Below are positions 1 through 33,533 of a stretch of DNA of 64,000 nt, piece by piece. Positions within the stretch are counted from its first letter, which is position 1, and each line of letters opens with the position of its first letter. The stretch comes from Cetorhinus maximus (Eukaryota): contig NC_135890.1 in NCBI RefSeq assembly GCF_964194155.1, positions 107,136,001 through 107,200,000 on the forward strand, read 5' to 3'. The notes under the pieces were generated by a model. The model ran no database searches, was not told the origin of the DNA, and worked only from the letters and a program-made list of their open reading frames with translations. The translations under genes and the position numbers were made by a program.

Positions 1-600
1 CCCACTGTCACTTGATCTACTTGGCCCACCTCGTTCCCAAGAACGAGGTCTAGCAGTGCCTCCTTTCTTGTTGGACTGGACACTTACTGCTGTAGGAAAT
101 TCTCCTGAACACAACCTAGGAACGCTTGTCTCTCACTGTCCCTTTCACTACCACTATCCCAGTCTATATACGGGTAACTAAAGTCCCCCGTTATAACTAC
201 TCTACAATGTTTACACCTCTCTGTAATTTCCTTGCAGATTTGTTCCTCTATATCCTTCCCACTAGCTGGTGGTCTGTATATTACTCCAAGCAATGTAATT
301 GCACCTTTCTTATTCCTTAGCTCTAGCCAAATCGATTCCGTCCTTGATCCCTCTGACACATCCTCTTTCTCCAGTACTTCATAGTCTCCTTAACCAAAAA
401 TCCTCCTCCTTTGTTCTCTTTTCTATCTTTTCTGAACACCTTCTAATCAGGAATATTTAACACCCAGATCTGCCCTTTCTTAAGTCAGGTCTCCATTATC
501 GCCACAACATCATAATCCCACAAGACAAGCGTTGCTGTAAATCCCTAATTTTATTAATTATGTGCCATGCATTCACATATGTGCAGTGTAACCCTGATTT
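1..600 (-). mobile_element. CR1-type LINE, endonuclease region, decayed
   Basis: APE-like motifs WLELRNKKGAITLLGVIYRPP and GDFSYPYIDW. Confidence 0.85.
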
Positions 601-1466
601 AGTCTCCATTGCTTGCTCCTTTAATCTGACACCATCTATTAATTTAGTATTCTCTTTGTCTTTTCTTAATTTTATTAACATGGAGAAAGGGTAATCCTTT
701 CATTTGTAAATTTAAACAGTATTTGCCATAACTGGCACTGCTGTCCCCATACCTGTTGCAGCCTTTGTGTGGACAGGGCACCAAATCCTCCGTCTTCCCT
801 GTCAGAATACAACAATACTCTGGAAAATCCAAGAATCCCAGAAACACTCCAGAGTACCTTCAAGACACTTTACAAATGCAGAAGTTCCTCATGTTAGCTT
901 ACCTGCAACTTGGGTGTTTGGCCCTTCAAAGAATGCGAGTGCTAGACCCATCTTGTACGTCTGCACCTGATGTTTGCAGGCTGCTGTATGAATCTGTTGT
1001 CTGGGCCTGAGTGAACCAAATTCAATATCCCTGTTGTCACATCAGTAGTTGGACTGGGTGACAACAGGACAGCGTCGATTCACAGCTCACATGTAGGGGA
1101 AACCCTGGGTGTGCTCTTTTACGAATGGAACTCCGTACAGGAAGCAGCCGCAGCCAAATGGTATATGGCATGACTAAAATGAATTCTATGCTCTTTGTGT
1201 TTGATGTCTCTTGATTAGGCTCCTTGACATTGTCAGCAGCTGCCTCAATGCACTGAGGCTAAACTCAATCTGGTCCCTAATGAGTCCTCAGTGTATCAAT
1301 CAGAGTTATTTCCTTAAAACTCTTGGTTCGGTTAAATCAAAGGAAAATGGTTTCAGATTTTGATCCCTGATGTAACATACATAGATTCACGGACAATTCA
1401 CATTTACAAATTTTCACAAGGCAGAAACAACACAACAGCATTTAGATTTGTATCCAAAGAAACAAC

Positions 1467-1472
1467 TTTATT
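1467..1472 (-). terminator. Poly(A) signal of ISG15-A1 (equivalents 22841-22846, 44230-44235)
   Basis: Minus-strand AATAAA followed by a GT-rich element (tgctgttgtgttgtttctg, ~1440-1422). The region aligns with the 3' end of gene B. Confidence 0.6.
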
Positions 1473-2214
1473 TTCAAGTAACGTTGCACATTTCAATAAA
1501 ATGAACAGCCCGGGCACATAAATTCTGTTATTACAAAAGACTAAGCACACTGACTAAAGCACTTATATATTGGACATCGACATCTACTCACATAAAGTAA
1601 GGCTAAAGGAATACTTGCAGAACATTTAGCATCATTGTTCATTATATACAGTTATTTTGGGTAAATTTCAGTGTATCACAAAAAGCGTCCTATTTCTCCA
1701 TTTCTCATACCAACCACCTTGTGCCACACCCGAGTGGGAATAGAACCGAAAAGAATAATCCTCATGCTGTGAGCGCACGTGCATTAGGTTAACACTGACA
1801 CTCACACAACCTATTTCATAGAGGATATCCACAGACAGCAGGCTTGAGGGAGGTTGGGCCTAATCTGAATTTAGGTCCCAAAGGAAATTGCTTAGTAATC
1901 TTTGGCCTCATGTATAAAATAAAAATATGTTTCCATTCCTTCTTTGAAGGATACCCTCTGCTGCTTTGTCTGACACATTCCGTGTGGGCTATGAGTGCAG
2001 GCAGTGGCCTGCTTCGTAGACAGACACTAATATGTGCATGAACACCCCACTGTTATGAACAAGACAATCGAAGAGTGACAGTCAAAGTATCATTTACTTA
2101 CTAACCGCGATGCTTAAACTCATAGAAATTGCATCAGTGGGAAAAAAACCAACAGATTTTTATCGTAGTTTTTGTGTGATATCTAACACTCATTCCATAT
2201 TGGTGCTGTCTTAG

Positions 2215-2682
2215 TTAACCACCTCGTAGTCGTAGCATGAGGAAGATGGTGCTCTCAGACTGAATATTGTAGTCGGCGAGTGTCAGACCATCCTCCAGCT
2301 GTTTCCCTTCGCACACCAGACGCTGCTGATTGGCTGGGACACCCTCCTGCCGTTGTACCCGTGCTCTAAAATCCCGAACAGACTCAGAGGGAAGAACGTC
2401 ATATGTAGATGTTTTCCCCTTGTCATTCTTCAGGAATATCTGCATGCGCTCCTCGTTCTTGACAATCAGCATGACCTCATGACTGGGAGAGACATTGTAG
2501 TCAGACAGCCTCCTGCTGTCCTGCAGCTCTTCAGTGTTTCCATTTTGCACCACCAGGCGCTGTCGGAAATGGGACACCTTGGTTCTTTCATATATCATCT
2601 TCTTGAGAGCTGACACTTGGATGGAAGGGTCGATATCCAGTTCAATAACCTCACCGGTCATAAACTTCACCCGGAGTCTCAT
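2215..2682 (-). CDS. isg15: ISG15-like di-ubiquitin modifier, type A, copy 1
   Basis: 155 aa with two Ubl domains and no internal LRLRGG. The second domain has the ISG15-type [11 protein letters not shown] and ends LRLRGG-stop. Splice acceptor 12 nt upstream of ATG; ISREs upstream. Confidence 0.9.
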
Positions 2683-2944
2683 CTTGTCAAATTTCTGTTA
2701 AGAAATGAACAAGATATCAGTGACGGAGATGCTGTGTATTGTGTATCAGTCACATAATACTATTTTGAACATGCAATACATTGTCCAGACAATCATAGAA
2801 TCTAGGGAACTAATGCATTGTGTATTCTGCACCTACTGTACTCCCAACTCAGTCAAACTCCTTTAAGTATTTTATTCTCAATCGGAGCAATGCTGCACAC
2901 AAAGCCATGGACTGCTGCAAATACCGAGCAGCCAGCATCTATGG

Positions 2945-3080
2945 ACAGATCAGAGTCTTTTGGACTTGAAATATGAACTCTGTTTCTCTCTCCACAGACG
3001 CTGCTAGGTCTGTTGAGTTTTACCAGCATTTTCTGTTTTAATTCTGATTTTCTTCTGTTTGTACATTAGATTTCAGCATC
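2945..3080 (+). mobile_element. Single-arm fragment of the same Penelope-type repeat in the gene A intron
   Basis: gagtcttttggacttgaaa...ctctccacagacgctgctaggtctgttgagtttt resembles 17658-17740. Confidence 0.55.
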
Positions 3081-3084
3081 GCTG

Positions 3085-3195
3085 CCAAATCTAGCGTTTA
3101 TTCCGCAAAATTAATTGCCCTTGTGAAGGTGGTGGTGAGCTGCCTTCTTAAACCGCTGCAGTGTGTATGTGGTATAGGTCCCACAAGATGCCTCA
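3085..3195 (-). mobile_element. Short 3' end of the 15464-17106 LINE family in the gene A intron
   Basis: gaaggtggtggtgagctgccttctt is the reverse complement of ~17004-17028. Confidence 0.7.
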
Positions 3196-4260
3196 CTTGC
3201 TCAAATACAACTTTGATGTTCAGGGCAGTCACTCTCACTTCTAGAATTTATCTGTTTTGTCACCTTTGGTTCAAGTTGTAAAGAGGTGTGGAACTCAGTG
3301 GTGGTCCAAGGAGAACCCAAAATGAGATGAGTTAACATTTCAGGTGTAAATCCTTTGTGGGAATTGGAAGATATAAAAATGATCCCATTCCTCACATGTT
3401 TCGCCGGCTCACCCACGTTCCCATATCTGCAACATTTCGATGTCATGTCTGTTTTCCAGTTTGAATGAGGCAGAAACTGAGTTAGAAATATTTGTGCAAC
3501 TTATATTCTGAATTTATGTTGGAGTATTGAATCTATCCGGCATCTGCTGCGCACACAGTTGCAATACTCGGTTTTGGCCACAAGAGTGACTCAAGTAACG
3601 TGTAACATGAGCCGTGAATGAACGGGCTTCACTTGTGGGGAGCGCTGAACATTTAAACAGCCAACAGCAGAGTTCTCTAAACCAGGAACGATGTAACTGT
3701 TCTTCGTTGTGCAGAATTCCATCACAGCTTCGTTCGTTTTAGACACTGCACTCATGATGAAATTAGATTTGTCAGGCTGCCCAAAACCTACATTTGCCCT
3801 GGGAATACAGGAATGATTTATCTCACTCACATCTCTCTCACTGTTTAACTTTGGTTATATTCTCTTGCACTGTCGCCACATTGAGAGGATATTATTTTAT
3901 CTTAAATTGACTGTGAGATTCAATATAACCCATTCGAGCTCCCAACATAAATTCAACCTCAGACGTATCTTACTATATTGTTTTAAAAAAGCAATGACCC
4001 TTGTAATCTTAGTTAATGAATGTTTAATGTATTATTTCGAATATTTGAACAGCCCCCGTTAGAATATCTGAGAACGGGTGTCACATAAACATTAGATCTG
4101 TGTCTCCAACAGGATTGAGTTTTTCAATGATTTTCTTTCCATTCTCACCGGGTTTTAATAATATTAATTTATCAGAAATTGCATCTGAGATTCAGAACAA
4201 TGCAATTTCCACACCAGAAACAGAATATTGAAATTGCCCCGAAAGGCAGAATGAACTCAC

Positions 4261-4455
4261 AGTCCTTGCTGGAAGCACAGGTCCGGGAAAGTTCAGCTGC
4301 TGAATAATTTCTGATGCACTTTTTCTGCGCAGTTGGTCCTTTCTGTTTCCCTTCGCACCGACTCTCAGATCTGGACGGAGTATGTGAATCAAGCTCTTTG
4401 CTTCTGCTGCTCTGTATCTTGCTCTGTGCGTCTCTCCGTTAAACAACTCTGTCTG
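4261..4455 (-). other. Predicted non-coding exon 1 of ISG15-A1 (TSS approximate)
   Basis: Lies between a TATA-like AATAAAA (4486-4480) and the GTGAGT donor, contains no ATG, and is homologous to 11824-12020 of gene B. Confidence 0.6.
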
Positions 4456-4479
4456 CGCGCGTCTCCGGCTCCCTCCTCC

Positions 4480-4696
4480 TTTTATTCTCAGACCCGGTTT
4501 CCGAACGTCGCAGCCCCGCTGTCCTCTAATTGTCGGAAATCCCCTGTTCTGTTATGAAATAAATGTGATCGGAGCTGAAGTTTCGTTTTCCGAAAACTTC
4601 TCCCCCCAGTGTCTGACAAATGATCTCTCAGCCAGCAGCAGAGCATTCTTGCTGATAACAGGAAATGGCCTCTGATCTGTTTCGTTTTCCATTTCC
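4480..4696 (-). promoter_or_regulatory. ISG15-A1 promoter: TATA-like box, NF-kB site, two ISREs
   Basis: AATAAAA 4486-4480; GGGGATTTCC (minus) 4544-4535; AGTTTCGTTTTCC 4579-4591 matching AGTTTCNNTTTC; GTTTCGTTTTCCATTTCC 4679-4696 with three GAAA half-sites. Confidence 0.8.
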
Positions 4697-4870
4697 TTCA
4701 GTAACACAATGTAGAGCATCTTCAGCCGAAAGTGAGCCTGGAGGATTCGATGCTCTGTTGCCATCAGCCGTTTGAACAGCTGTTACTCTTAGAAATTTCA
4801 TCTGGACCCAATGTTTTCTTTGAAAAACGATCTTTATTTTTAGGAGTGTGAGGTGATGCTTTTTGGGAGG

Positions 4871-5640
4871 ACTAACACGGCAAGGGAATCCACAATGAAT
4901 GGTAGGACCTTAGACAGTACAGAGGATCAGAGGGACCTTGGTGTACATGTCCATAGATCCCAGAAGGCAGCAGCACAGTAGATAAGGTGGTTAAGAAGGC
5001 ATATGGGATGCTTGCCCTTGTTAGCCGAGGCATGGAACATAAGATTAGGGAGGTTATGTTGGAGTTGTATAAAACGCTAGTTAGACTACAGCTGGAGTAG
5101 TGTGTGCAGTTCTGGTCACCACCCATATGGGAAGGATGTGATTGCACTGGAGAGGGTGCAGAGGAGATTCACCAGGATGTTGCCTGGGCTGGAGCGTTTC
5201 AGCTATTAAGATAGACTGGATAGGCTAGGGTTGTTTTCCTTAGAGCAGACAAGACTGAGGGGGGACCTGATAGAGGTATCCAAAATTATGAGGGGCATAG
5301 ATAGGGTAGATAGGGAGAAACCTTTCCCCTTAGCAGAGGTATCAATAACCAGGGGGCATAGATTTAAGGTAAGGGGCAGGATGTTTAGAGGGGATCTGAG
5401 GGAAACTTTTTTCACCCAGAGGGTGGTTGGAATCTGGAACACACTGCCAGAGGGGGTGGTAGAGGTGGGAACCCTCAGAACATTTAAAAATTATTTAGAT
5501 GGGCACTTGAAATGCCACAGCATACAGGGCTACAGGCCAAGTGCTGGAAAATGCGATGGGAAAAGTTAGGTGCTTGATGGCCAGAACAGACACGATGGGC
5601 TGATGTGCCTGTTTCCGTTCTGTATAACTCTATGACTATC
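4871..5640 (+). mobile_element. 5'-truncated CR1 LINE 3' fragment (equivalents ~26243-27012, ~47641-48410)
   Basis: ORF2 C-terminal motifs FSLEQTRLRGDLIEV, TRGH and FFTQRVV; ctctatgact tail. A second short CR1/SINE 3' end lies at ~5870-5952. Confidence 0.85.
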
Positions 5641-6639
5641 AAGCACTCATTCTAACACAGACCCTATGATGAAAGGCACTTCCTGTGACACGTCAATATA
5701 AGGAAACAGGGAAGGGATTACAGTGATATGGCTGGTATAGCAGGGTGGCATCTCCACATTGGCACCAGTGATGTAAATTATAAAATTCTTGATTTTTTAC
5801 AGATTGAGGAGCAGGTACAAAAACTGAATTTGGCACACAGTGTCCTGTGTCCCGAGCAGTGATACATAGATAAGTGCTTGATGGCTGGCACAGACACGAT
5901 GGGCTGAAGGGCCTGTTTCTGTGCTGTATAACCACATGACGCTACGACTCTAAGACGGTACAGTATTTCTTGGGCGGCTGCCTGAGTTGAGTTGGTTTAT
6001 GTGAGATTTGGGGAGAGTGAGAGAAGGTGAAGGTGAGGTTGATGAGACCTGATTTGAATGGCAGAGCCAGTTCAAAGGACTAAGCCTCTACTCCTTCTGA
6101 TGTTCTTGTTTGATTTGACAGTGCAGCAATATTGTAAAAAGCTTGTCAAATGAAAGATTGCTTCTATTCTGAACTGATAGTGAGGGTGATTGCAGATTGA
6201 ACTACAGATCTAGAGCCAACCCAAAGGGGCAGTGGAGTCAGTTCTCCTCTTAAAAATTAAGTTAGACATTTTGGCTGAGATAATCATCTTAGTCTGATGT
6301 AGCATGTAACTGAGCTGGAGAGGCTCTCCATCAAAAGTGTGCCCTCAAAATGGCTGCTGTAATACCCTTTCCATGATCTTATTCTGATTTTCTTCCACCT
6401 TCTGGAAACAAATTAACTCTTGCAATTAAATGAAGCAAGGGAGTGGGGTCCCCATATTTCCCTTTCTTTGTGCCCAGTTACCATCCCTGAAAATCAGCAC
6501 CAGTTTACCATTGGCAGTTCTTAACCGATCAGAGATAGGGAAGGTGAAGAGGAGAAAGGTGCTGGAGGCCAATCAGGATGAAGGTGCCGAGAAGTAAGGT
6601 GGGTCCAAACACCTCATGAGCATCAAACAGGCGCGAGCA

Positions 6640-7250
6640 CTGATCCTTGCAGCACCCGGCTAGTTACATCCTGCCAACCAGAAAATGGCCCGTTTATTGC
6701 TACTCTCTGTTTTCTGACCATTAACCGATTCTGAGTTCATGTAATATATTAGCCCCAATCCCATGAGCCCCAATCTTTTGAAATAAACTCATTGGCGGTA
6801 GCTTATTGAATGCCTTTGGATAATCCAATTAAAATAAATCCACTGGTTCCTCCTCATCTACCCTGCAACTCAGAACCTCAACAAACCTCAACAAACTTTA
6901 ACATAATGTATAGAACACAGTTTCCCTTTCATACACCCATGCTGACTTTGACCAATCAAATTATGATTTTATAAGTGCCCTATTATCATGTCCCTAATAA
7001 CAAATTGTCGCACATTCCTTTCTGTTGATGTCAGGTTAACTGGCCTATACTCCTTCCTGATTCTTTCTCCCTTCGTTTCTTGAATAGTGGGTTTATGTTT
7101 GATCCTCCCAATCCATGAGGAGTGTTTGAGTATCTATTGAATCCTGCAAGACCCAGTGTGCCCACTATCTCTGTAGCCAGATCTTTTACCCCCTATGAAG
7201 GCGGCGATGGGTCCAGGGAATCTGTTGCCTTTTCGTCCCATGAATTTCTC
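6640..7250 (-). mobile_element. Old decayed CR1 RT-region fragment (equivalents ~28010-28620, ~49410-50020)
   Basis: The reverse complement resembles the CR1 RT region at 13300-13780 (e.g. caggccagttaacctgac, agagagtagcaataaacggg). Confidence 0.55.
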
Positions 7251-7374
7251 TCGTACTTTTTTCAGGATACAATTAGATTAATCCTGGGGATTTTAATTTT
7301 CATAGCGACTGGACGAAATAAATCTGCTGTAGTAATGTGGGGGATAAGGTTATAGAATGCAGTCAAAAATATTT

Positions 7375-8015
7375 TCTAGATCAGTGTCAGCAACCAGCCA
7401 CAAGGAGAGGTCCCTAAATCTGGCAGTAGATAGGAAACACAATCTTGGGGACTCCTGGGTGTGGCTCCAGAGAACAATATCCATCCCTCTGATTATACTG
7501 TCCTCTGCCATTACCACATTCCTTCCCCACAGCTTGCCCTCAACATTAATGGCCTCATGTATCATGGTTCTGTGGTCAGTTTTCTCATCCACCAGATTTT
7601 TTTATCATTCAGACAGGCAGCAGGAAGCCCATGCCTGTTAGATAAGGACAATGGCTGAGGTCCCCTGCACTGCACGATTGTGCTACGCTGTCTATGTTCC
7701 TATTTTCTTATCCACCTTGTGTCTCCTTACTAACCTGACCCGCAGCCACACCCTCCTGTCCCTGACCACTATTTAGACACTATGGGGCACTACGTAACTT
7801 AAGGAGTGTGACTGCCTCTTGGATGAAGTGTCCAGCTAACAGTCTTCCTCCCTAATGCCCCACAATGCCTGCATCTCGGACTGAAGCTCGACAAGTCGAA
7901 AGTTGAACTTCCTTGAGGTTCAGACACTTACTGTGGATGTGGTTGTCAGCAATTGCAATGCTGTCCACAAACTCCCACATGCTGCTGTTGTTGCAAAGCA
8001 CCTGCAATGCCATCA
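7375..8015 (-). mobile_element. CR1 ORF1 remnant: SGNH esterase-like and N-terminal Zn-finger-like (equivalents ~28745-29390, ~50145-50790)
   Basis: RNVVMAEDSIIRGMD...ESPRLCFLSTARFRDLS resembles the CR1 ORF1 GDS...CLPGARVRDV motif; MWE...KC upstream. Confidence 0.65.
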
Positions 8016-8789
8016 CCAGCTAACCCAGTTTTATTTATTTCATTAATTAACATTTATGCATTTAAACAACTTAGCTTATTTTGTTAACCTTTACGATATA
8101 GTTTTAAGTGATTGGTATATTGATATTTATCTGTAAATTACCCATTTCCTCCCCATGCTGTGATGTCACTTTGTGAATGCAACAAAGCCCTGAGTTTACC
8201 AGCACTTCTGGCCATTTATGAAGCAGTCATTGGCAGCATTCCCAAAAAAAACACAACTGCTTTGATTTGAAAGCCTCTTGTTGAATCCTTTGGCTGCATT
8301 GAGTTTCTGGAATGTCTCAGTCACCAGGGTGTCCCTGACATTATGCCACACCTCCAGCTTTGCATTGCAATGTGGGTGTGGTCTCTCATGATTCAGCTTT
8401 AGCACTGCATGAGAAACCACCGTCTCCACTAGCTGCACGAGATGTATGCTCACGAAACATTGATCTGTTAAAGCCTGTACCCTGATATCTTTATGTTTGG
8501 TTCCTTCACCAAGGAAGAGATTTCTGTCCCCTCCAGGGAGAGAAAACTGTTTCCCTGTCATTTCCTCCCAGTTCTGTCTGCTCCCTGGTGCACCGTGAAC
8601 CACCAACTGATAAGCTTCCACCTCAGTAATTCCCTTGTCTCAAGTAAGTGCATCGGGGCAGGTGTTTGAATAAGCAAGTTGTCTCTTGGAAGTTTCTAGT
8701 ATTCCAAACTGGAATAATTAGAAAAGCATATTTCCTTAATTATTAAATGTGACCAGTGTGAACTTAATTTTTGTATAAATTGCTGCCTT

Positions 8790-8900
8790 AGTCTCAGAAT
8801 GACAAAATCACACAGTGCAGAAGAGGCCCTTTGGCCCATTGAGTCTACACCGACATGGGAGAAATCCCCGACCTACCCACCTAATCCCATTTACCATAAT
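8790..8900 (-). mobile_element. Short CR1/SINE 3' end
   Basis: cagtgcagaagaggccctttggcccattgagtct is the reverse complement of the CR1 3' terminal motif seen at 5590-5630 and 14735-14750. Confidence 0.55.
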
Positions 8901-9415
8901 TAATACTCTTAGTTGATCGCTCAGTAAAGAATCAATACAGACATGATTAGCCAATAGTTCTGTGTTGTAAATCTTTATCGTTCTCACAAAAACCTGAGTA
9001 TTTGATATTTTTACCCAAAGCTGTGATGCTGTGAGAACCATTGAGATTGTCCAGTCTGAGCATGTGCAGACTGAATGTTTTGGTACAATTTGTTGATCGG
9101 CTCGCCGGCTGCCTCCGTTCCTGATCCCATCAGGGCCTAAAAATCCTGCCCAGATTCTCTAACATATCATGTGAAAGGCCACAGAAGATCAACCGGTACA
9201 ATATAATTAATATAATTAAACAGTGGTAAATATGGGCTGGTGATCTGGGCTGGTGTGATTCTTCAATATTGTCCATAGGTGTCTCATTCATAGCTGATTG
9301 TCCCATCAACACTTGTTAGGGTAAATGATCATAACCTAGGTTTAAATATGCATCCCGGATGGAATGCAGGGAAAGCCACAGACAATACAGACAGATAGAA
9401 ACACACATTCCAATT

Positions 9416-9421
9416 TTTATT
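9416..9421 (-). terminator. Poly(A) signal of ISG15-B1 (equivalents 30807-30812, 52185-52190)
   Basis: Minus-strand AATAAA followed by GT-rich tgtgtgtttctatctgtctgt. An AGTAAA at 9439-9434 sits at the position homologous to the A signal. Confidence 0.55.
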
Positions 9422-10284
9422 AAAATGGACAACTTTACTTTCAAATCACATTGGGTATTTTGGCAAATACAATGTGCAGGCCTGACATCCTCTGCTCTTA
9501 CACAACACTAAGCACCCAGATTAAAGCATTCCAATGTTAAACACATACAATTTTCCAAGAACACATTAAGGTTAAAGCAATTACTTGTAGATGACCTTAA
9601 GTCATTTTAAAATGAAGCTGGAAGACACTCATTGTTGATCCTTTGGAATTTTTGGCATGGCCCCTCCTATTCAGTGAAAGAGCTTTGGAATTGCCACATC
9701 AGCTAACTAATGGTCTCTGAGAGTGAGAAGGCGTATTCGTACTGAATGAGAGACAAGTTTGGAGCTGTGGATCAGGGACTGGATCATTATTGGCCTAAAT
9801 CTTCAGTAGAATTTTGAAGAGTAACAGAACATACTTTTGACCAATGATCGGCCAGGATTGATGTGAATCAAAGTATCACGAGTCAATGATCAGAATGGAA
9901 CACGTTGCATTAGCAGTCCCCCCGAATCCTTCTATATTATTAATTAAGTTGCTGACCCTTGTAAAAATTGTGTCCAATGTCTTGTACCTGCATCTTTCCT
10001 CAGGTGGGAATGCAGGAAGGTGACCTGCACCCAGGCCTCAGTTGGTATCATTTCCTAGCCAATCATTATCTGTTGAATAAACTTCCTGTTGTTATGGGAA
10101 CTGGGGCAGACAGGAATAAGATTCAAAAGTATCATGGACAAGTCAGTGACTGTGCAACCTGGGACTCTTACTAACTGCAGCTGAGAAAACAGGAGTATAT
10201 GAAAAAATTGATCAATTGAGGCACTATAAATAATTTACTTCTGTAATAGCTAGAGTTCATGGTATAAACCGCTGCAAGTGCAGG

Positions 10285-10752
10285 TTAACCACCTCGTAGA
10301 CGGAGCATGAGGAAGATGGTGCTCTCAGGCTGAATATTGTAGTCGGCGAGTGTCCGACCATCCTCCAGCTGTTTCCCCTCGCAAACCAGACGCTGCTGAC
10401 TGGCTGGGACACCCTCCTGCCGTTGTACCCGTGCTCTAAAATCCTGAACAGACTCAGAAGGAAGAACGTCATATGTAGATGTTTTCCCCTTGTCATTCTT
10501 CAGGAATATCTGCATCCGCTCCTCGTTCTTGACAATCAGCATGACAGCATCGCTGGGAGAGACATTGTAGTCACACAGCCTCTTGTTGTCCTTCAGCTCC
10601 ACAGTGCTCCCATTTTGCACCACCAGGCGCTGTTGGAAATAGGGCACATTGGCTTTTTTGTATATCATCATCTTGAGAGCCGAGATTTGGATGGAAGGGT
10701 CAACATCAAGTTCAATATCTTCACCGGTCAAAAACCTCACCTGGAGTCTCAT
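10285..10752 (-). CDS. isg15: ISG15-like di-ubiquitin modifier, type B, copy 1
   Basis: 155 aa, same architecture as type A with a divergent N-terminal Ubl, ends LRLRGG-stop. Acceptor (taacag) 12 nt upstream of ATG. Confidence 0.9.
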
Positions 10753-10764
10753 CTTGTCAAATTG

Positions 10765-11823
10765 CTGTTAAGAGATGAACAGGATGTCAGTGATGGGGAC
10801 ACTTTATATCACGAGTCAATTGCTAAGAATGAATGAAAGAATTTAACACGCAAGACGCATTGTCCCAGGCATTGGCTGCAAGCGCAGAAGCTGAGGGGTA
10901 ACTGTTGTGTAAATTTCATCTGCAATAATAGCAACATCTGGCTTCCTACATGATACCTGAATCGCCTAGACACCAATCTTCACCAACTCCTCCCTTCCTG
11001 CCAGACAAAAAGCACCAGATTCACATATCTGTTCCCCTGATTGCATTTGGCTTTGTCTTTGCTGCTCTATGCTGACTTGTTAAAATATTCAGAAACCCCC
11101 TGGGATCTGCGTACTGAGCTGCAATGCTAGCATCTGTCTGAAGTAGCCCTCAGTGAGCTGTGTAATGTGGCACAGTCTGTGTTTGGGTTCATGGGGAGAT
11201 AAGAACATGGGCTTGGAAATTCTGTGAGTTTCTCTTAATCTTGCACCATAGCTTCAGCAATTCATCAATGGAGTCTAAGAGAATGGGTGTAAATGAAGGA
11301 AAATGACTGTAAGTTTCACCTTCAAATTAAAGGAACCATTTGTATAACTCTCTAAACCAGAAGACAGGGCATCCCCAGTCCAGTAGTAAAAAAAAAGTAC
11401 CCTATTGTTGAGTAGAATTTTCTCTTTTGATGCAAGCGGTCTATGAATGAAATCTGTACAGTTATGACACACCAAGCAGCAGAGAGTTATTCTGTCCAGA
11501 AATGCTTCCTCTCAGATTCAGACTTACATAATGCATTCTATTGAAAAACAAAAACTACTTTGCTGATATTAGACAATGAATGTTTAATGCATTAGTTTAA
11601 ATTTCCATCTTTAAAATAGCAGACAAAGGGGTGGCACATAAACATGTTAAGTTGTTATCGCCTTGTATTGTCTTCAATAACTCACAGGCTATGCTTTTTA
11701 AATTAACCTGACCCAGTTCAGAGAATATTAAGAACTTATTTTAAATGGTGAGTTTCATTCAAAATGACTTATTTTAAAACCCAGAATTAGAATATTGAAA
11801 TTTCTAAATAAAAGACAGGATAC
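10765..11823 (-). other. Predicted 5'UTR intron of ISG15-B1
   Basis: Acceptor ttcatctcttaacAG at 10766-10765. Candidate donor cag|GTATCC at 11823, next to the position homologous to the A donor; the exact donor is uncertain. Confidence 0.55.
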
Positions 11824-12048
11824 CTGACAATCTTTGCCGGAAGCACAAGTCCAGGTGAATCAGAAGAAATTTGAGCTGCACAATGGGGAGAGATTCACTT
11901 CCCTGCACAGTTTGTTTTCTCTGTGTTTCTCCACACCGGCTCTCCAATCTAGTATAAGGGAATGAAATTCTGTGTGTTTCTTGCTCCGTCTCTTCTGTGT
12001 TTCCCACCGTTAAACAAGTGAGTGAGTGTCTGGCTCCCTCCTCAGTCC

Positions 12049-12303
12049 TTTTATTATTATTGCTGGTTTCTGAACGTCACAGCCTTGTTGCCCTCTAATT
12101 GCTTTGAACAAACAAGTGAGACCAGAGCTGGTTTCATTTCCCAAAGCCTCCCCTCAGAGTCTGGGAAATAACCTGACAGGAGCAGCAGGAATGCACCTTG
12201 CTACAGGTAACAGGTACTGAATTCCGAGTTATCTCAGTTTCAGATTCCTATCTGGTGCCACAGTCATAAACAACAAGAACAGAATCAGCTGAGCGGTGAG
12301 TCA
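12049..12303 (-). promoter_or_regulatory. ISG15-B1 promoter: TATA-like box, ISRE-like sites, AP-1 motif
   Basis: AATAAAA 12055-12049; GGTTTCATTTCCC 12130-12142, positionally homologous to the proximal A ISRE; AGTTTCAGATTCC 12236-12248 (degenerate); TGAGTCA 12297-12303. Confidence 0.65.
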
Positions 12304-12419
12304 GAGGCCTCACTGCCTGTTTGAAGCTGTGGGCAGGGCTTGAACAATACAATGTATAAAGATATAGTGCATCAGACCAGTCAGTTTAATTATCTAATGA
12401 AAAGAAATTGGCCTCAAAT

Positions 12420-14785
12420 TGCAGGGGTCCTGCTCCACGAGTACAAGTCAAATTTGTGGAATGTCTACAAGATGGCTTTTTGGAGCAGCTTGTGGTGGAG
12501 CCCACGAGGGGACAGGCAATTCTAGATTTAGTGATGTGTAATGAGGCAGATTTGATAAGGGTGCTTAAGGTGAAGGAGCCCTTAGGAGGAAGTGACAATA
12601 ATATGATAGAATTTACCTTGCAATATGAGAGGAAAAAGCTGGAATCAGATGTAACGGTATTACAGTTGAATAAAGGCAACTACAGAGGCATGAGGGAGGA
12701 GCTGGCCAGAATTATCTGGGAGATGAGCCTAGCAGGAATGACAGTGGAACAGCAATGGCAGGAGTTTCTGGGAGACACATCAAAAATTCATCCCTTGGAA
12801 GAAGAAGTATACTAAAGGGAGCACGAAGCAACCATGGCTGACAAGGGAAGTCAGGGACAGCATAAAAGCGAAAGAGAAAGCATACAATGCAGCAAAGAGC
12901 AGTGGGAAACCAGGGGATTGGGAAGCCTACAAAGACCTACAGAGGACAACTAAAAAAGAAATAAGGAGGGAGAAGATTAAATATGAGTGTAAACTGGCCA
13001 GTAATATAAAAGAAGATTGCAAGAGTTTTTTTTAGATAAATAAAGGTTAAGAGAGAGGCAAAAGTGGACATTGGGCCACTGGAAAATGATGCTGGAGAAG
13101 TAGTAGTGGGGAACAAAGAAATGGCGGAGGAACTGAATAGGTACTTTGCGTCAGTCTTCGCGGTGGAAGACACGAGTAACATCCCAAACGTTCAAGAGGG
13201 TCGGGGGACAGAGGTGAGTATGGTGGCCATTACCAAGGAGAAGGTGCTAGGAAAACTGAAAGGTCTGAAGGTGGATAAATCACCTGGGCCAGATGGATTA
13301 CACCCCAGAGTTCTGAAGGAGATAGCTGAAGAGATAGTGGAGGCGTTAGTGGTGATCTTTCAGGAATCACTGGAGTCAGGGAGGGTCCCAGAGGACTGGA
13401 AAATCGCTAATGTAACCACCCTGTTTAAGAAGGGAGTGAGGCAAAAGACGGGAAATTACAGGCCGATTAGCCTGACCTCGGTCATTGGTAAGATTTTAGA
13501 GTCCATTATTAAGGATGAGATTTCAGAATACTTGGAAGTGCATGGTAAAATAGGGCAAAGTCAGCATGGTTTCATGAAGGGGATGTCATGCCTGACAAAT
13601 CTGTTCCAGAAGGCCTTTGAAAAGGTGCCGCACAGGAGGCTGCTCAGTAAGATAAGAGGCCATGGTGTTAGAGGCAAGGTACTAGCATGGATAGAAGATT
13701 GGCTGTCTAGCAGGAGGCAGAGAGTGGTGATAAGGGGATTCTTCTCAGGATGGCGGCCGGTGACCAGTGGAGTTCCGCAGGGGTCAGTGTTGGGCCCACA
13801 ACTTTTCACTTTATACTTTAATGATCTTGATGAAGGAACTGAGGGCATCCTGGCTAAGTTTGCAGATGATACAAAGATAGGTGGAGGGACAGGTGGTATT
13901 GAGGAGGCGGGGAGGCTGCAGAAGGATTTGGACAGGTTAGGAGAATGGGCAAGGAAGTGGCAGATGGAATACAACGTGGGCAAGTGTGAGGGCATGCACT
14001 TTGGTAGGAAGAATAGAAGTATAGACTATTTTCTAATTGGGGAGAGAATTCAGAATTCTGGAGTGCAAAGGGATTTGGGAGTCCTAGTCCAGGATTCTCT
14101 TAAGATTAACTTGCAGGTTGAGTAAGTAGTTAGGAAGACAAATGCAATGTTGGCATTTATTTCGAGAGGACTAGAATATAAAAGCAGGGATGTGCTGCTG
14201 AGGCTTCATAAGGCTCTGCTCAGACCACATTTCGAATATTGTGAGCAATTTTGGGCCCCGAATCTCAGGAAGGATGTTCTGGCCCTGGAGAGGGTCCAGA
14301 GGAAGTTCAGGAGCATGATCCCAGGAATGAAAGGCTTAACATATGAGGAACGTTTGAGGGCTCTGGGTCTATACTCAATGGAGTTTGGAAGGATGAGGGG
14401 GGATCTGATTGAAACTTACAAAATACTTGAAGGCCTGGATACAGTGGACATGGGGAAGATGTTTCCATTAGTCGGAGAGACTAGGACCCGAGGGCACAGC
14501 CTCAGAGTAAAGGGAGGACCTTTTGGAAAAGAGATGAGGAGAAACTTCTTTAGCCAGAGAGTGGTGACTCTATGGAATTCATTGCTACAGAAGGCTGTGG
14601 AGGCCAGGTCAGTGCGTGTACTTAAAACTGAGAGAGATAGGTTCTTGATTGGTAAGGGGATCAAAGGTTATGGATAGTAGGCGGGAGAATGGGGTTGAGA
14701 ATCTTATCAGCCATGATTGAATGGTGCAGCAGACTCGATGGGCCGAATGGCCTAATTTCTGCTCCTATGTCTTATAGTCTCATGC
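12420..14785 (+). mobile_element. CR1 LINE ORF2, 5'-truncated, disabled
   Basis: KSPGPDG, NYRPISLTS, GVPQGSVLGP and FADDTK RT motifs; frameshifts, stops and an in-frame deletion (SCLTNL|FQKAF); tail cctatgtcttatagtct. Confidence 0.92.
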
Positions 14786-15360
14786 TGTTAGGTAGAGGAA
14801 AACCCCTTTCCCTTTCCAATCACAAGGCCAAGGGGTTAATGTCACTTCGATGTCATGGTGGATGCTCAGAAACTGTAAGAGTGCTTTAGTGGACAGATCC
14901 ATCCTAATCTTTGCTTTGTTTATAACATCTGAAATCCCTCTGTGACTATTCTCACATGATCCTTTTTGCTTCTACTGTGGACTCGAGCTTCTATGCCTCC
15001 CGTGTTCCTTTGCTGCCCCAGGTAAGAAGTACAAGGTTTGTGACATGTAAACCATCTCCACCAATCAATACATTTTGATTGTCTTTTTCTAAAAGAAAAC
15101 TTAATACTTTGTCAAATCCCACGTGTGCACACCCCGGTTGAATTACAATTCATCCTCAGACCCTTCCTCTAGCATCGACATGGTGCATCCTGTGTGACTT
15201 CAGCCAAGTTAGAGACAGGCTGTCCAGATCAGTGTTGGAAATTTTTGTCCAGCTTTGCCTTAACACATCCTCCAGCTGAACACCACTCCACTACTCGTGT
15301 TTTGATGGAGGTTCCAACCTGTATTTTACCCTCTCCTCCTCCAACAATGGAAACAGCAGC

Positions 15361-15463
15361 AGAGCCATATCACAGCCGTAATACAGCCATGCCACAGCCA
15401 TATCACGGCAATATCGGAGCCATGTCACAGCCGTACCACTGTCATATCACAGCCATATCACAG
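15361..15463 (+). repeat. Degenerate 11-bp minisatellite (agccatatcac)n, continuing at 17107-17145
   Basis: About nine imperfect units, split by the LINE insertion. Confidence 0.8.
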
Positions 15464-17106
15464 TGATACCTCCACCGGATGTTCCCAGCATCACTGATAC
15501 CAGTCTTCAGCCAATTGAATTCACTCCACGTGATATCGAGAAATGGCTGAAGGCACTGGACACTGCACAGAGTACGGGCTCTGATAATATCCTGACAATA
15601 GTAATGAAGACTTATGCTCTAGGACTTGCTGTGCCCCTATCCAAGCTGTTCCAATGCAGCTACAACAGTGGCATCCACCCGGCAATGTGGAAAATTGCCC
15701 AGGTATGTCCTATAAACAAAATACAGGTCAAAACCAACTGGGCATATGACCGCCCCACCAGTCTACTCTTGATCATCAGCAAAGTGATGGAATGGGTCAT
15801 CAACAGTGCTATCATGTGGCACTTGATTAGCAATAACCTGCTCACTGACACCCAGTTTGGGTTTGGCCAGAGTCAGTCAGCTCCTGACATCATTACAGCC
15901 TTGGGTCAAACGTGGACAAAAGGATTGAAGAGAAGAGATGAGGTGAGACTCACTGCCCTTGACATCAGGGAAGCATTTGATTGAGTGTGGCATCAAGGAC
16001 CCTTAGCAAAACTGGAGTCAATGGGAATCAGGGGGAAAGCCCTCTGTTGGTTAGAATCATACCTAGCACAAAGGAAGATGGTTGTGGTTATTGGAGGTCA
16101 ATCATCTCAATTCCAGTACATCACTGCAGGAGTTTCTCAGGGTAGTTCCTAGGCCCAACCATCTTCAGCTGCTTTATCAATGACCTTCCTTCCATCATAA
16201 GGTCAGGCGTGGGGATGTTCGCTGACGATTTCACAATGTTCAACACCACTCGTGATTCCTCAGATACAGAAGCAGTCCATGTCCAAACGCAGCAAGACCT
16301 GGACTATATTCAGGGTTGGACTGACAAGTGCAAGTAACATTCACACCACACAAATGCCAGGAAATGACCAACACTAACAGGAGAAAAAGTAACCATCGCC
16401 CCTTGACATTCAATGGCATTATCATCGCTGAATCCCCAACTATCAATATCCTGGGGGTTACCATTGACCAGAAACTGAACTGGATTAGTCATATCAATAC
16501 TGTGGCTATAAGAGCAGGTCAGGGGCTAGGAATTTTGTGGAGAGTAACTCGCTTCCTGACTCCGCAAAGCCTGTCCACCATCTACAAGGCACAAACCGGG
16601 AGTGTGATGGAATGCTAATCACATGCCTGGATGAGTGCAGCTCCAACAACACTCAAGAAGCTTTACGCCATCCAGGACAAAGCAGCCAGCTTGATTGGCA
16701 CTCCATCCACAAATATTCACTCCCTCCACCACTGACGCACAGTGGCAGCAGTGTGTACCACATAGAAGATGCACTGCAGGAACTCACCAAGCCTCCTTAC
16801 ACAACACCTTCCAAACTCATGACCAATACCATCTAGCAGCAGAAACATATCAAGAGCACCACCTGGATGTTCCGCTCCAAGCCACTCACTATCCAGACTT
16901 GGTCATATATCGCTGTTCCTTCACTATTGGTGGCTCAAAATCCTGGAACTCCTTCCCTAACAGCACTGTGGGTGTAACTACACCACATGGATTTCAGCAG
17001 TTCAAGAAGGCAGCTCACCACCACCTTCTCTAGGACAATTAGGGATGGGCAATAAATGCTGGACTATCCAGCAACACCCATATCCCATAAGTGATAAAAA
17101 GAAAAC
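15464..17106 (+). mobile_element. Second CR1/L2-group LINE family, 5'-truncated, with apparent 16-bp TSD
   Basis: RT motifs (MWKIAQVCP, ALDIREAFD, MFADD) and an A-rich 3' end; flanked by cacagccatatcacag at 15448-15463 and 17107-17122. Confidence 0.85.
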
Positions 17107-17508
17107 CACAGCCATATCACAGCCACACCACAGCCGTATCACAGGCAGACCACATTGCCAGCACCGACAGCCATGAAGGCAAATTGGAGTTATAGTTCTT
17201 TAAAGTACACTGTTGGGCTCCTCACTGTAACATAATCTTTAGCTCCTCTTGTTTACAACTACGATCACCATCAGGTCCACATGGGATATGTTTGGTCCAG
17301 AAGATGGGAGTCTCCTTCGCTTGGTCCGTTGTCCGTCTAGGGATGGTGGGGTCTGATACACACTTTGCCTAAGGGACTACCCTTTTTGCTGACTCTGCTG
17401 GGACATCAACCCCCTAAGGAATATATAGTTTCCTGGATGGAATTTACCTTGCCATTTGGACCGACATAACTGGATATAATTATCAGGTGGGCTCATCAGC
17501 ATTATTCT

Positions 17509-17745
17509 TACTAAGATAAAAGCAAAATACTGCGCATGCTGGAACCTGAAAGAAAACCAAAAACTGCTGGAGAAACTCAGCAGGTCAGACAGCATCTGTG
17601 GAGAGAAAAAGCCAACGTTTCGAGTCCAAATGGCTCTTCATCTTCAGTTCTGAAGAAGAGTCATCTGGATTCGAAACGTTGGCCCTTTCTCTCCACTGAT
17701 GCTGTCAGACCTGTTGAGGTTTTCCTGCAGTTTTGGTTTTTGTAT
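17509..17745. mobile_element. Palindromic Penelope-type terminal-repeat insertion with 9-bp direct repeats (equivalents 38896-39132, 60276-60512)
   Basis: ~90-nt inverted arms centred near 17645; cattattct at 17500-17508 and 17746-17754; CTGAAGA...GAAACGTT core. The family assignment is from recognition, not a search. Confidence 0.6.
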
Positions 17746-18529
17746 CATTATTCTAACGTTGTCTCCTGGGTTGTTTACTCACACATTTTTCTATTCACCA
17801 CTCTCCCCAATTTGTCTCAAAGTGACAAATGAGGAATGTCTAAGGGCAGAGTAGTTTCAGACTCTGACATAAGTATTTTCCATTGAAACTCTCTGATTAA
17901 ACATACTGCATTTCCTTCCTTCATTCATCATACTTATTGCCTTCGTTCCAACTGTTTGGATAGCCACCTTTAATCGCTCCATGGTTTTTCCACACGTGTA
18001 CCCTCCCTGACTCCCCAGGAATCACTTGGGGTTTGTTAAATGCGATATCGTGGTCACTAAAGTTGGACCAATCAAAGAAATCGCTTTTCTAACCTGGATT
18101 GCCAAAATACACTGGTTGAACTCTTCCAGAATATGGATGGCTATTAACAGGTGGCTGATCTTTAATGTTTGGGCCCATATCTTCGACTGACCGTCAATCC
18201 AGATTTTTCTGTAAAATAAAACAAAATACACCAACTTCTGCGGGTGAAACTTTTCTTTTGGACACAGGTGAGTAGTTAAGGGTTAACAAAATTGCCTTTC
18301 TCTTCTGTGGCCTCTATTAACCCTATCAATTCTGCATAGGAGTGAATCAGCTGAACCCTCTCCCTTTGAGCACTGCCTTTGTAACGCATACCTCTGCTGG
18401 CATTTAGCCTTCCTGGGCAGGGCTGGCTCCCAGATTCAACTCCTCCTCCAGCATCCCCTCGGAGGTGGTACTTCTGGATCTCATTATTGGGTCTGTGGGC
18501 CTGATGCTGGCTGCTTTTCCTTTCTGCAA

Positions 18530-18960
18530 ATGTTCCCCCTTAAATAGTTTCACCTGATTAATATGAAACCATGTATCCCACTTTGTAATTTGGACAGCAT
18601 ACACCATTGGGCTGGCTTTATCCACAATGCTGTATGGCCCCTTGTATACAGATTCAAACAGACCAACTCTTGCATCATTTCATGCCTTAACTTGCTGACC
18701 TATATCCCACTCTTGTGGTTTGGCTTTTTGTAGGAGCAATTTATTAACACAATGCCCCTCCCTATGTTGCTTGCAGCCTAATTGTGGAGGCCTTGCAAGG
18801 CCACATAAGATCAACTGGTTCAATATAATTAATATAATTAAATTGTGGAAATTATGGGCCGGTGATCTGGGCTGGTGTGATTCTTCAATATTGTCCATAG
18901 GTGTCTCATTCATAGCTGATTGTCCCATCACCACTTGTTAGGGTAAATGATCATAACCTG
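18530..18960 (-). mobile_element. LTR-retroelement integrase C-terminal fragment with GPY/F motif (equivalents ~39920-40350, ~61300-61730; partial copy ~9175-9340)
   Basis: Minus-strand translation WDIGQQVKA*NDARVGLFESVYKGPYSIVDKASPMVYAVQITKWDTWFHINQVK, preceded by P*QVVMGQ..ETPMD. Confidence 0.7.
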
Positions 18961-19481
18961 ACTTTAAATATGCATCCCGGATGTAATGCAAGGAAAGCCA
19001 CAGACAATTCAGACGGATAGAAACACACATTCCAATTTAAAATAAAGTTTTACTTTCAAATCACATCGAATATTTTGGCAGAAACAACATACAGGCCTGA
19101 TATCCTTTGCTCTTGTAAAACACTAAGCACCCAGAATAAAGCATTCCAATGTTAAACACTTACAATTCTCCAAGAACACTTTAAGGCCAAAAGGAATTAC
19201 CTGTAAAAGTTATTTTAAAATGAAGAAGGCAGGCAATCATTGTTGATCTTTATATGGGGAATATTTGGCATGTCCCCTCCTATACAGTGAAACATTTTTG
19301 GAATTGCCCCATCAGCCATCTTATGGTCCCTGTGAGTCAGGAGGTGAATTAGTACCGAATGAGAGATGAGCTTGGAGCTGTGTACTCATTAGGATCTCAA
19401 CCAATATTAGTTTCACTCTTCAGAAGAATCTTTAAGGTTAACAGAACATGCTTTTGACCAATGATCAACCAGGGTTGATGT
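18960..19481 (-). pseudogene. Orphan distal 3'UTR of a lost B-type ISG15 paralog (equivalents ~40350-40870, ~61730-62250)
   Basis: 18800-19481 aligns with 9175-9865 (gene B distal 3'UTR plus downstream flank), but no Ubl coding exon follows. Confidence 0.7.
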
Positions 19482-20203
19482 AAAATGGTTCTGTACATCC
19501 TGGCACCGGCAACAAGAGAATCCCAGTGACCCAGTGCACTGGGACTTTTGAAGATGATGATAATTTCCTGCTTCTGCCCCTTCTCATCACCCCCATCCTA
19601 CTATCTGGCACGAAATGCAAACTGCAGATGGTGTAACCATGGACCTCTTGCTTCCCACCCTTGCCCCTTCTTCACCTAACCTTCCACTTCTGATTTTGTG
19701 ATTTCTGATACCCTAGAACTGCCCACTTACACAGGCACAGCAGCCCAAGGAGCAAGAGAGAGAGCAGCAGCCACAGCACTGATGAAGAGGTTCTATCCAC
19801 TTAACTTGGTGCTCAGATACTGCCACTGTGCGCACCTTTTAGAGGCCACTACAGATTTAGATCAGCTTGTGGTGACTCACCAGGTATGAGTGGCCTGCAA
19901 ACAGGCCAGGGGCAAAGGATGGTTTGTTTGTCAGCTTACTGGAGGGTGAGGTCACAGACAAGTGTTACTGCAGTGGACTTGGTGAGGATCTCGATGGGAC
20001 AGCATACAGGAGAATACTAAGGGGCATGCACACTGAGGTACTTGGTACATTGGCTGGTCTGGAGCAGGAGCACAGCCTTCCTATCACTGTCAGGGAACAT
20101 GGAGGGGTCTGACACCAAGTTGGCATAGTTTATGGTGCAAAGCTTGCCCTATCCGCAGCCACTACTCCATCTCTATCTCACGTTGCAGACCCAGGGGCAC
20201 TGG

Positions 20204-33520: not shown

Positions 33521-33533
33521 GGTTTCATTTCCC
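33521..33533 (-). promoter_or_regulatory. ISRE-like site, ISG15-B2 promoter
   Basis: GGTTTCATTTCCC, same context as 12130. Confidence 0.65.

What the first reader, a model, noticed from the sequence alone, without database searches (positions are those of the whole stretch)
2215..10752. Constant C-domain, variable N-domain: paralogs A and B look homogenised only over the conjugating domain
Seen (manual count): A1 and B1 differ at 22 of residues 1-79 but only 4 of residues 80-155 (A3 vs B1: 2). At DNA level the last ~260 nt of the CDS differ at about 10 positions, so silent sites are also nearly identical. Identity collapses immediately after the stop codon, and introns and UTRs align only patchily. 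Purifying selection alone would not hold silent sites. Established: the C-domain engages E1 (UBA7), E2 and USP18, whereas the N-domain contributes to E3 transfer and is contacted by viral antagonists such as influenza B NS1 and coronavirus PLpro. Inference: domain-restricted gene conversion keeps one enzyme-compatible module while the N-domains diversify.
Basis: partly seen in the sequence, partly recalled or inferred. Interest (0 to 1): 0.8.

Follow-up and report, generated by a model that had tools for sequence, protein, structure and literature searches.

The report
Shark ISG15-like copies swap tail pieces
This shark carries a long tandem row of ISG15-like antiviral tag genes in two old types that differ in their first domain, while pieces of the second, attaching domain have been copied from one type into the other, likely because selection keeps only the first domains distinct.

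Summary
Its silent-site argument is weak for this pair: 10/51 vs 5/55 synonymous differences, p=0.16. The conclusion still holds on better data. The window is three units of a 19-copy array (8 A, 11 B). All 27 fixed A/B coding differences lie in nt 17-207, and none of 41 variable C-domain sites is fixed. Six interior B copies, including B1-B3, carry an A-type tract at nt 246-307 (7 of 7 diagnostic sites) that their flank-sister copy and a related shark's B contig lack. Across sharks, C-domains group by order and N-domains do not. Corrections: conversion comes in partial tracts, and several B copies keep an old B-type C-domain start. N-domains are two conserved types, not diversifying (pN/pS about 0.65-0.7). 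A B-type patch (K32/A34/N35) recurs in one catshark type, so it may predate the two orders. Domain-restricted conversion is known in TLR1/TLR6 and IFIT1/IFIT1B; I found no report for ISG15. The adaptive story is untested. The array is interleaved with OASL-like genes and is not at the HES4-AGRN position.

The parts
2215..2682 (-). A1 coding sequence, 155 aa, two ubiquitin-like domains ending LRLRGG-stop, all in exon 2
   Evidence: Pfam ubiquitin, 2 stretches
2446..2682 (-). A1 N-domain (codons 1-79); holds all 27 fixed A/B coding differences (nt 17-207)
2563..2589 (-). A1 codons 32-40, the type-specific patch around conserved F39
2215..2445 (-). A1 C-domain (codons 80-155 and stop); no fixed A/B difference among 19 copies
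2695..4260 (-). A1 intron in the 5'UTR, GT..AG
   Evidence: joint 2694-4261 in contigs of runs X15 and X18, both only guessed to be RNA
4261..4532 (-). A1 non-coding exon 1 and proximal promoter, homologous to B1 11781-12101 at about 67% identity
   Evidence: 5' end of the exon not mapped
4581..4695 (-). three GAAANNGAAA (ISRE-type) motifs upstream of A1 (4581-4590, 4680-4689, 4686-4695)
   Evidence: consensus match only, function untested
10285..10752 (-). B1 coding sequence, 155 aa, ending LRLRGG-stop
10633..10659 (-). B1 codons 32-40; K32/A34/N35 shared with white shark B and catshark type 2
10446..10507 (-). A-derived conversion tract in B1 (CDS nt 246-307, 7 diagnostic sites); starts after nt 237 (10516) and may reach nt 371 (10382)
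11781..12140 (-). B1 exon 1 and promoter; predicted donor near 11823; one GAAA-N-GAAA motif at 12132-12140 and no two-base-spacer motif
   Evidence: splice site not tested
23587..24054 (-). A2 coding sequence
31676..32143 (-). B2 coding sequence, carries the A-type tract
44978..45445 (-). A3 coding sequence; carries B-like letters at nt 398, 424 and 453 (possible B-to-A tract, not significant, p=0.08)
53053..53520 (-). B3 coding sequence, carries the A-type tract
1..64000 (.). three units of a 21.37 kb tandem repeat (A gene, B gene, retroelement debris), about 98% identical
   Evidence: self-alignment; for the whole array

Best explanation
A and B are two old types of ISG15-like gene in a 19-copy tandem array, and stretches of the C-domain have been copied between them by gene conversion, while the N-domains stay distinct, likely because selection removes conversions that overwrite type-specific N-domain residues. 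Shown: two fixed N-domain types; no fixed C-domain difference; an A-derived tract at nt 246-307 in the ancestor of six interior B copies, later spread by duplication of the 21 kb unit; low synonymous divergence at codons 111-155 in all B copies. Inferred: purifying selection first kept the C-domains similar enough to recombine; converted C-domains are tolerated because both types would use one conjugation machinery (in mammals E1 grips the C-lobe, not the N-lobe); the N-lobe surface around residues 32-40 and 49 would give each type its own partners. Untested: interferon induction, conjugation, the partners, and any viral antagonist.
For: 27 of 52 variable N sites fixed, 0 of 41 C sites. Flank trees put L018 as sister of the six interior B copies (SH-aLRT 96 and 99; 2.4-3.0% apart), yet C-domain DNA rejects that clade (AU 0.021; nt 238-330 AU 0.005). 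At 46 sites that separate A from the outer-B state, the interior six read 31 B, then 7 A in a row, then mixed (p=3e-5). Polarity: a B-type contig of organism C carries the outer-B letter at 7 of 7 of these sites, the A-type contigs of organisms B and C at 0 of 7. pS at codons 80-110 is 0.28 for A vs L018/L017/L015 and 0.10 for A vs the interior six; non-coding 0.26-0.29. Protein trees: the N-domain rejects a lamniform A+B clade (AU 0.025); the C-domain has it (support 77) and rejects a B+catshark-type-2 clade (AU 1e-8). In catsharks the two types share species-specific residues (position 76: K in 7 of 7 S. canicula, N in 4 of 4 S. torazame) yet keep a type-specific patch at 32, 34, 35, 37, 40 and 49 in both species. 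This is the best sign of selection against overwriting. E1 contacts the C-lobe and NS1B only the N-lobe in human ISG15 (10.1101/2023.04.06.535837, passages).
Against: Pairwise synonymous contrast is significant in only 1 of 4 pairs. An all-A clade is not rejected on C-domain DNA (AU 0.46, unrooted). Other candidate tracts are weak: L019 p=0.007, L006/L008 p=0.08, L016 p=0.19 and 0.83, L015 p=0.66 (uncorrected). Orthology of catshark type 2 with B rests on 3-4 residues; the clade is neither rejected nor found on the N-domain (AU 0.39; best tree groups the catshark types, support 80), and no catshark DNA was available. No contig shown bridges a B N-domain to the converted tract, so the tract rests on the assembly. 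C-domain variants among A copies are 13 non-synonymous:3 synonymous. In Asian seabass two tandem ISG15 genes show the opposite pattern, identical N and 62% identical C (PMC9680060, passages).
Confidence: 0.6

Rival explanations
1. Conversion is real but confined to the C-domain for a mechanical reason. Purifying selection keeps C similar enough to pair; the N-domain drifted past the identity needed for strand exchange and is now locked out. No selection favours two N types.
For: N-domain pS (0.20-0.215) approaches non-coding divergence (0.26-0.29) and pN/pS is about 0.65-0.7, with no excess of replacements. The homology block ends at the stop codon.
Against: In catsharks homogenisation ran through most of the N-domain and left a six-residue patch in both species. 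Within each type the N-domain is conserved (A copies 7:7; pN 0.008-0.013 vs pS 0.04), which is not drift.
Confidence: 0.23
2. One reading: conversion is favoured because it keeps one enzyme-compatible C module, while N-domains diversify under pressure from viral antagonists.
For: Same pattern and same reasoning as published for TLR1/TLR6 (PMC2077338, abstract). 23 replacement differences in N vs 4 in C. NS1B binds the N-lobe in human ISG15.
Against: N types are stable across species. pN/pS is below 1. Outer B copies keep a diverged C-domain start and an intact reading frame (L018, L016). PLpro contacts both lobes. Seabass shows the reverse polarity.
Confidence: 0.11
3. No conversion: purifying selection alone keeps the C-domain similar, and the shared variants are recurrent mutations.
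For: Pairwise dS contrast is not significant for A1/B1; the C-domain is the ubiquitin-like, constrained one (58% identical to ubiquitin repeats in this genome).
Against: Seven linked changes, four at synonymous positions (246, 252, 258, 303), each to the A letter, within 62 nt on a branch where about 0.9 changes are expected. AU rejection of the flank clade. Four-gamete failures in 83 of 231 C-site pairs vs 39 of 630 N-site pairs.
Confidence: 0.04
4. The mosaic copies are assembly chimeras of collapsed repeats.
For: L015 and L017 lie in a 96 kb block that is 99.8% identical where compared. No independent contig bridges the tract.
Against: Six copies with distinct flanks (0.4-1.7% apart) share the tract and carry their own derived letters inside or near it (nt 294, 369). 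White shark and catshark proteins show the same N/C conflict.
Confidence: 0.02

Closest known systems
TLR1/TLR6 domain-restricted gene conversion (PMC2077338; abstract seen)
   Same: Tandem innate-immune paralogs; C-terminal part more alike between paralogs than orthologs; N-terminal part sorts by paralog; explained by shared partners.
   Different: There a 300-residue region in a two-gene pair; here short tracts in a 468-nt exon within a 19-copy array, and the conversion is incomplete among copies.
IFIT1/IFIT1B recurrent gene conversion (PMC4887208; abstract and passages seen)
   Same: Interferon-stimulated paralogs, breakpoint at a domain boundary, the unconverted part defines the paralog.
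   Different: Polarity reversed (5' converted); dS contrast much larger; functional difference was shown, here it is not.
Teleost ISG15, including the Asian seabass ISG15A/B pair (PMC9680060; passages)
   Same: Two exons, intron in the 5'UTR, CDS in exon 2, ISRE motifs, LRLRGG, tandem paralogs with one domain identical.
   Different: Seabass has identical N and divergent C, with no mention of conversion (0 hits). Most teleosts have one copy, salmon six (PMC13030082, passage); here 19.
Mammalian ISG15 (HES4-ISG15-AGRN locus; gene order recalled)
   Same: Di-ubiquitin-like fold with LRLRGG; aromatic residue before the QRL motif (F39; human F41 per PMC8764230 passage); per-domain scores favour ISG15 over ubiquitin for the N-domain and hinge.
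   Different: Not at the HES4-AGRN position in this genome; C-domain 58% identical to ubiquitin against 37% in human; multi-copy.
OASL tandem ubiquitin-like tail (PMC8764230, passages)
   Same: Two Ubl domains with LRLRGG in birds; OASL-like genes lie inside this array on the other strand.
   Different: A and B are free-standing two-exon genes, only 31-32% identical to the neighbouring tails.

Membership tests
ISG15 | Two tandem ubiquitin-like domains | tested here: met
   Pfam PF00240, 2 stretches in both proteins; structure job did not finish
ISG15 | C-terminal LRLRGG | tested here: met
   19 of 19 copies have it; 17 end there, 2 read on 38 residues
ISG15 | Closer to ISG15 than to ubiquitin, FAT10 or OASL tail | tested here: inconclusive
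   N-domain: ISG15 38.2 bits vs ubiquitin 34.2; hinge region 20.4 vs 15.3 per stretch; Atlas ranks ISG15 clusters 0.95 and 0.93, ubiquitin D 0.93; whole-protein and C-domain hits are led by ubiquitin; databases name the shark proteins polyubiquitin-like
ISG15 | Fish gene structure: intron in 5'UTR, CDS in exon 2 | tested here: met
   joint 2694-4261 in 2 of 4 runs laid; criterion from PMC9680060. Shown for A only
ISG15 | ISRE motifs in the promoter | tested here: met
   three per A promoter in 3 of 3 A copies; none with two-base spacer at B, one single-spacer motif. Motif only
ISG15 | Position between HES4 and AGRN, as in tetrapods (recalled) | tested here: not met
   agrin NtA exons and a HES-type domain lie on C15; no Ubl hit in 400 kb between them (about 9 kb and 200 N not covered); array is on C12. 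Teleost gene order could not be checked, so orthology to mammalian ISG15 stays open and I file these as ISG15-like
ISG15 | Interferon induction; conjugation by UBA7/UBE2L6; removal by USP18 | not testable with these tools
   E1_UFD search of the genome found nothing and its control rang nowhere: uninformative
FAT10/UBD | Location in the MHC class I region (recalled) | tested here: not met
   MHC class I matches on C22 and two small contigs, none on C12
Polyubiquitin | Repeats near-identical to ubiquitin | tested here: not met
   C-domain 55-59% identical to this genome's ubiquitin repeats
Domain-restricted gene conversion (TLR1/6, IFIT1/1B type) | Tree conflict between gene parts and a tract with donor identity, including silent sites | tested here: met
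Domain-restricted gene conversion (TLR1/6, IFIT1/1B type) | Clear dS drop in the converted part, repeated in independent lineages at DNA level | tested here: inconclusive
   pS 0.20 vs 0.11 over 88 related pairs, significant in 1 of 4 single pairs; other lineages seen as protein only

The most novel reading that the evidence does not exclude
Sharks of two orders have kept two ISG15 types since before they split. Conversion has erased the differences almost everywhere except a small N-lobe surface (residues 32-40 and 49, beside the inter-domain F39), which therefore marks a specificity site of ISG15, interchangeable on a common conjugating domain. The array's place inside an OASL-like cluster, away from HES4-AGRN, would further mean that fish-type ISG15 and the OASL tail share one ancestral locus.
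Probability: 0.33. Interest if true: 0.7.

Novelty: new member of a known kind. Interest (0 to 1): 0.48.

Why it matters
The role of ISG15's N-domain is much less clear than that of its C-domain. This array supplies natural chimeras: two N types on shared or mosaic C-domains, with a candidate patch of six residues. That makes the question of what the N-lobe selects directly testable by swaps. It also shows a 19-copy expansion of a gene that is single in most fish, hidden under the label polyubiquitin-like, and warns that whole-gene trees of these copies will mislead. The mechanism itself, domain-restricted conversion between immune paralogs, is known.

Tried and rejected
Positive selection on N: pN/pS 0.65-0.7 between types, below 1 within types; no codon-model test was run. 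Further conversion tracts in L016, L015, L006, L008: not significant. Profile search of protein representatives returned multi-ubiquitin proteins and no usable bony-vertebrate ISG15, so no tree with mammalian or teleost ISG15 was built. Structure prediction was queued and had not finished; no fold search was done. E1 search uninformative. Contig depths were not used to rank expression of A and B. Rows left out: Mobula P0003 from trees; P0121 from C trees (truncated); AU tests used 30 of 47 protein rows; three-domain proteins were cut to the first 155 residues. Flanking ORF scan covered 100 of 273 non-repeat ORFs. Literature: searches ISG15+shark (25), ISG15+gene conversion (26), ISG15/cartilaginous/evolution/paralog (29), ISG15+synteny+fish+ISRE+intron (35), ISG15+AGRN+synteny (43, 0 papers), ISG15 copies tandem teleost (63), OASL+ISG15+shark (67), ISG15/elasmobranch/chondrichth (91) listed no paper on shark ISG15 arrays or ISG15 conversion; only the listings were seen, and subscription journals are mostly missing. 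Three wanted papers were not held, so the contact residues of NS1B and PLpro were not mapped onto the patch. No supplements were read. Earlier scan notes: none found.
Full report
What the window is. The window holds three units of a 21.37 kb tandem repeat, about 98% identical. Each unit has two minus-strand genes, A and B, encoding 155-residue proteins with two ubiquitin-like domains and a terminal LRLRGG. The nearest named proteins are from basking shark (98%), white shark (94%) and catsharks (81-88%), labelled polyubiquitin-like or uncharacterised. A search of the own genome gave 46 matches, 19 of them full-length copies at C12:107.074-107.382 Mb: 8 A and 8 B alternating, then 3 more B. 16 of 19 have both ATG and stop; L019 has lost the ATG; L015 and L017 read on 38 residues past LRLRGG.

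Checking the observation. The counts are right: 22 of 79 and 4 of 76 residues, 2 for A3/B1, 10 differences in the last 260 nt. The A/B homology block runs from about 50 nt inside the intron to one base past the stop (474/526). Exon 1/promoter and the 3'UTR end align at 64% (250/389, 119/186), or 0.26 and 0.29 mismatches per aligned base. The silent-site argument is weak. A1/B1 has 10 of 51.3 synonymous differences in N and 5 of 54.8 in C (p=0.16); 1 of 4 pairs tested was significant.

The whole array decides it. Of 93 variable coding sites, 27 of 52 in N are fixed between A and B, all in nt 17-207; 0 of 41 in C are fixed. B-B synonymous distance in C (0.10) equals A-B distance (0.11), while in N it is 0.04 against 0.20. 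Trees of 1.5 kb flanks make L018 the sister of the six interior B copies, which include B1-B3. C-domain DNA rejects that clade (AU 0.021; 0.005 for nt 238-330). At 46 sites that separate A from the state shared by L018 and another outer B, the interior six read B 31 times, then A seven times in a row (nt 246, 252, 254, 258, 290, 303, 307), then mixed (p=3e-5). Four of the seven are synonymous positions; about 0.9 changes are expected in 62 nt on that branch. Polarity comes from outside: a B-type contig of organism C has the outer-B letter at 7 of 7 sites, the A-type contigs of organisms B and C at 0 of 7, and white shark B proteins have R85 (3 of 3) where A proteins have K85 (4 of 4). So an A-derived tract entered the ancestor of the interior B copies, starting between nt 237 and 246, at the domain boundary. 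Outer copies L018/L017/L015 are as far from A at codons 80-110 (pS 0.28) as non-coding DNA is; at codons 111-155 all B copies are close to A (0.05-0.10), which points to further tracts. Of those, only L019 reaches p=0.007; L006, L008, L015 and L016 do not (uncorrected). An all-A clade is not rejected on C-domain DNA (AU 0.46).

Across species (proteins only). In N, lamniform A (12 rows) and B (14 rows) are each one clade (100/98, 100/99), and an A+B clade is rejected (AU 0.025, 30 of 47 rows). In C, lamniform A+B and the two catshark types each group by order (support 77 and 92), and a paralog-wise clade is rejected (AU 1e-8 and 6e-4). Catsharks also have two types. They share species-specific residues (position 76: K in 7 of 7 S. 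canicula, N in 4 of 4 S. torazame), yet differ in both species at 32, 34, 35, 37, 40 and 49. K32, A34 and N35 are in 14, 13 and 14 of 14 lamniform B and 5 of 5 catshark type 2, and in 0, 0 and 1 of 9 outgroup rows. This suggests the A/B split predates the two orders; A/B non-coding divergence is also about four times the 6-7% seen between A introns of this species and organism B. It is not shown: the B+type-2 clade is neither found nor rejected on N (AU 0.39), and catshark type 2 also has its own residues at 145-149.

N-domains are conserved within type (mean 4.0 and 3.8 residues against 22.9 between types) and pN/pS between types is about 0.65-0.7. Among A copies the C-domain has 13 replacement and 3 silent variant codons, the N-domain 7 and 7 (p=0.12). 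Asian seabass ISG15A/B show the reverse pattern, identical N and 62% identical C (PMC9680060, passages). The background is partly confirmed: human E1 cradles the C-lobe, NS1B binds the N-lobe only, PLpro binds both (10.1101/2023.04.06.535837, passages). The roles given for USP18 and for the N-domain in E3 transfer are recalled and were not checked.

Mechanism. Shown: two fixed N types and conversion tracts in C. Inferred: purifying selection kept C similar enough to recombine and makes converted C-domains harmless; conversions into N are purged because residues 32-40 and 49 matter. The catshark pattern favours this over a purely mechanical lock-out, but rests on protein data. I put conversion at about 0.9 and the full explanation at 0.6.

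Family membership. Two Ubl domains, LRLRGG, a 5'UTR intron (joint 2694-4261 in 2 of 4 runs, both guessed RNA), ISRE-type motifs at A and F39 before the QRL motif (human F41; PMC8764230, passage) fit fish ISG15. N-domain and hinge score better against ISG15 than ubiquitin, by small margins, and the Atlas lists ISG15 clusters second and fourth. Tetrapod synteny (recalled) fails: agrin and a HES-type gene lie on C15 with no Ubl hit in 400 kb between them. MHC class I is on C22, against a FAT10 position. The right half of the array is interleaved with OASL-like genes (28 of 29 OAS1_C matches at C12:107.25-107.41 Mb). I therefore call the genes ISG15-like; PMC5381560 (passages) states that zebrafish and human ISG15 are syntenic, which I could not check.

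Comparison and novelty. Domain-restricted conversion between tandem immune paralogs is published for TLR1/TLR6 (PMC2077338, abstract) and IFIT1/IFIT1B (PMC4887208, abstract and passages). A review says most fish have one ISG15 and salmon six (PMC13030082, passages). Also read in passages without bearing on the result: 10.1101/693333, PMC12234341, PMC6307210. The searches listed nothing on shark ISG15 arrays or ISG15 conversion; listings only, no supplements. Verdict: a real, apparently unreported case of a known mechanism, with a testable candidate surface; interest 0.48.

Noticed in passing
G000:C12:107.247-107.415 Mb (L031-L036, L070, L072): The plus-strand di-ubiquitin-like ORFs ending LRLRGGKET follow OAS1_C exons: a cluster of about eight OASL-like genes interleaved with the ISG15-like B copies; some have only a partial Ubl tail.
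   Followed up: partly
L015 and L017 (C12:107,381,580 and 107,285,801): B copies whose stop codon is lost, giving a 38-residue extension after LRLRGG, with P84 and R91; this type is present in contigs of run X3. They lie in a 95.8 kb block duplicate, 99.8% identical where compared: recent duplication or assembly artefact.
   Followed up: partly
L019 (C12:107,231,668): B copy with ATA in place of ATG and several private replacements; likely a pseudogene.
   Followed up: partly
window 4581-4695 vs 12132-12140: A promoters have three two-base-spacer ISRE-type motifs; the homologous B site reads GGAA-AT-GAAA (an ETS-IRF-like spacing, label recalled). A and B may be regulated differently.
   Followed up: partly
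window 4260 vs about 11823: A and B appear to use different 5'UTR splice donors a few bases apart in the aligned exon 1.
   Followed up: no
P0133, P0143, P0003 (Mustelus, Pristiophorus, Mobula): Annotated N-C-C three-domain forms with a duplicated C-domain, and 310-461 residue fusions of whole copies (P0122, P0144); real unequal crossover products or annotation merges.
   Followed up: no
G000:C15:9,388,001-9,788,000: No ubiquitin-like coding sequence found between a HES-type gene and agrin.
   Followed up: yes
L076:5422-5739 (C12 about 107.46 Mb): ANAPC16 match just beyond the OASL-like cluster; polyubiquitin repeats lie at the end of the same contig (126.03 Mb).
   Followed up: no
window 9172-9864, 18794-19481 and copies; 13040-14677: A 700-bp repeat present twice per unit at 84% identity, and long reverse-transcriptase-like ORFs duplicated with the unit.
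   Followed up: no
catshark type 2 proteins P0011, P0134, P0135, P0137: Type-specific residues N145, S147, A149 next to the conjugating tail, an exception to C-domain uniformity.
   Followed up: partly
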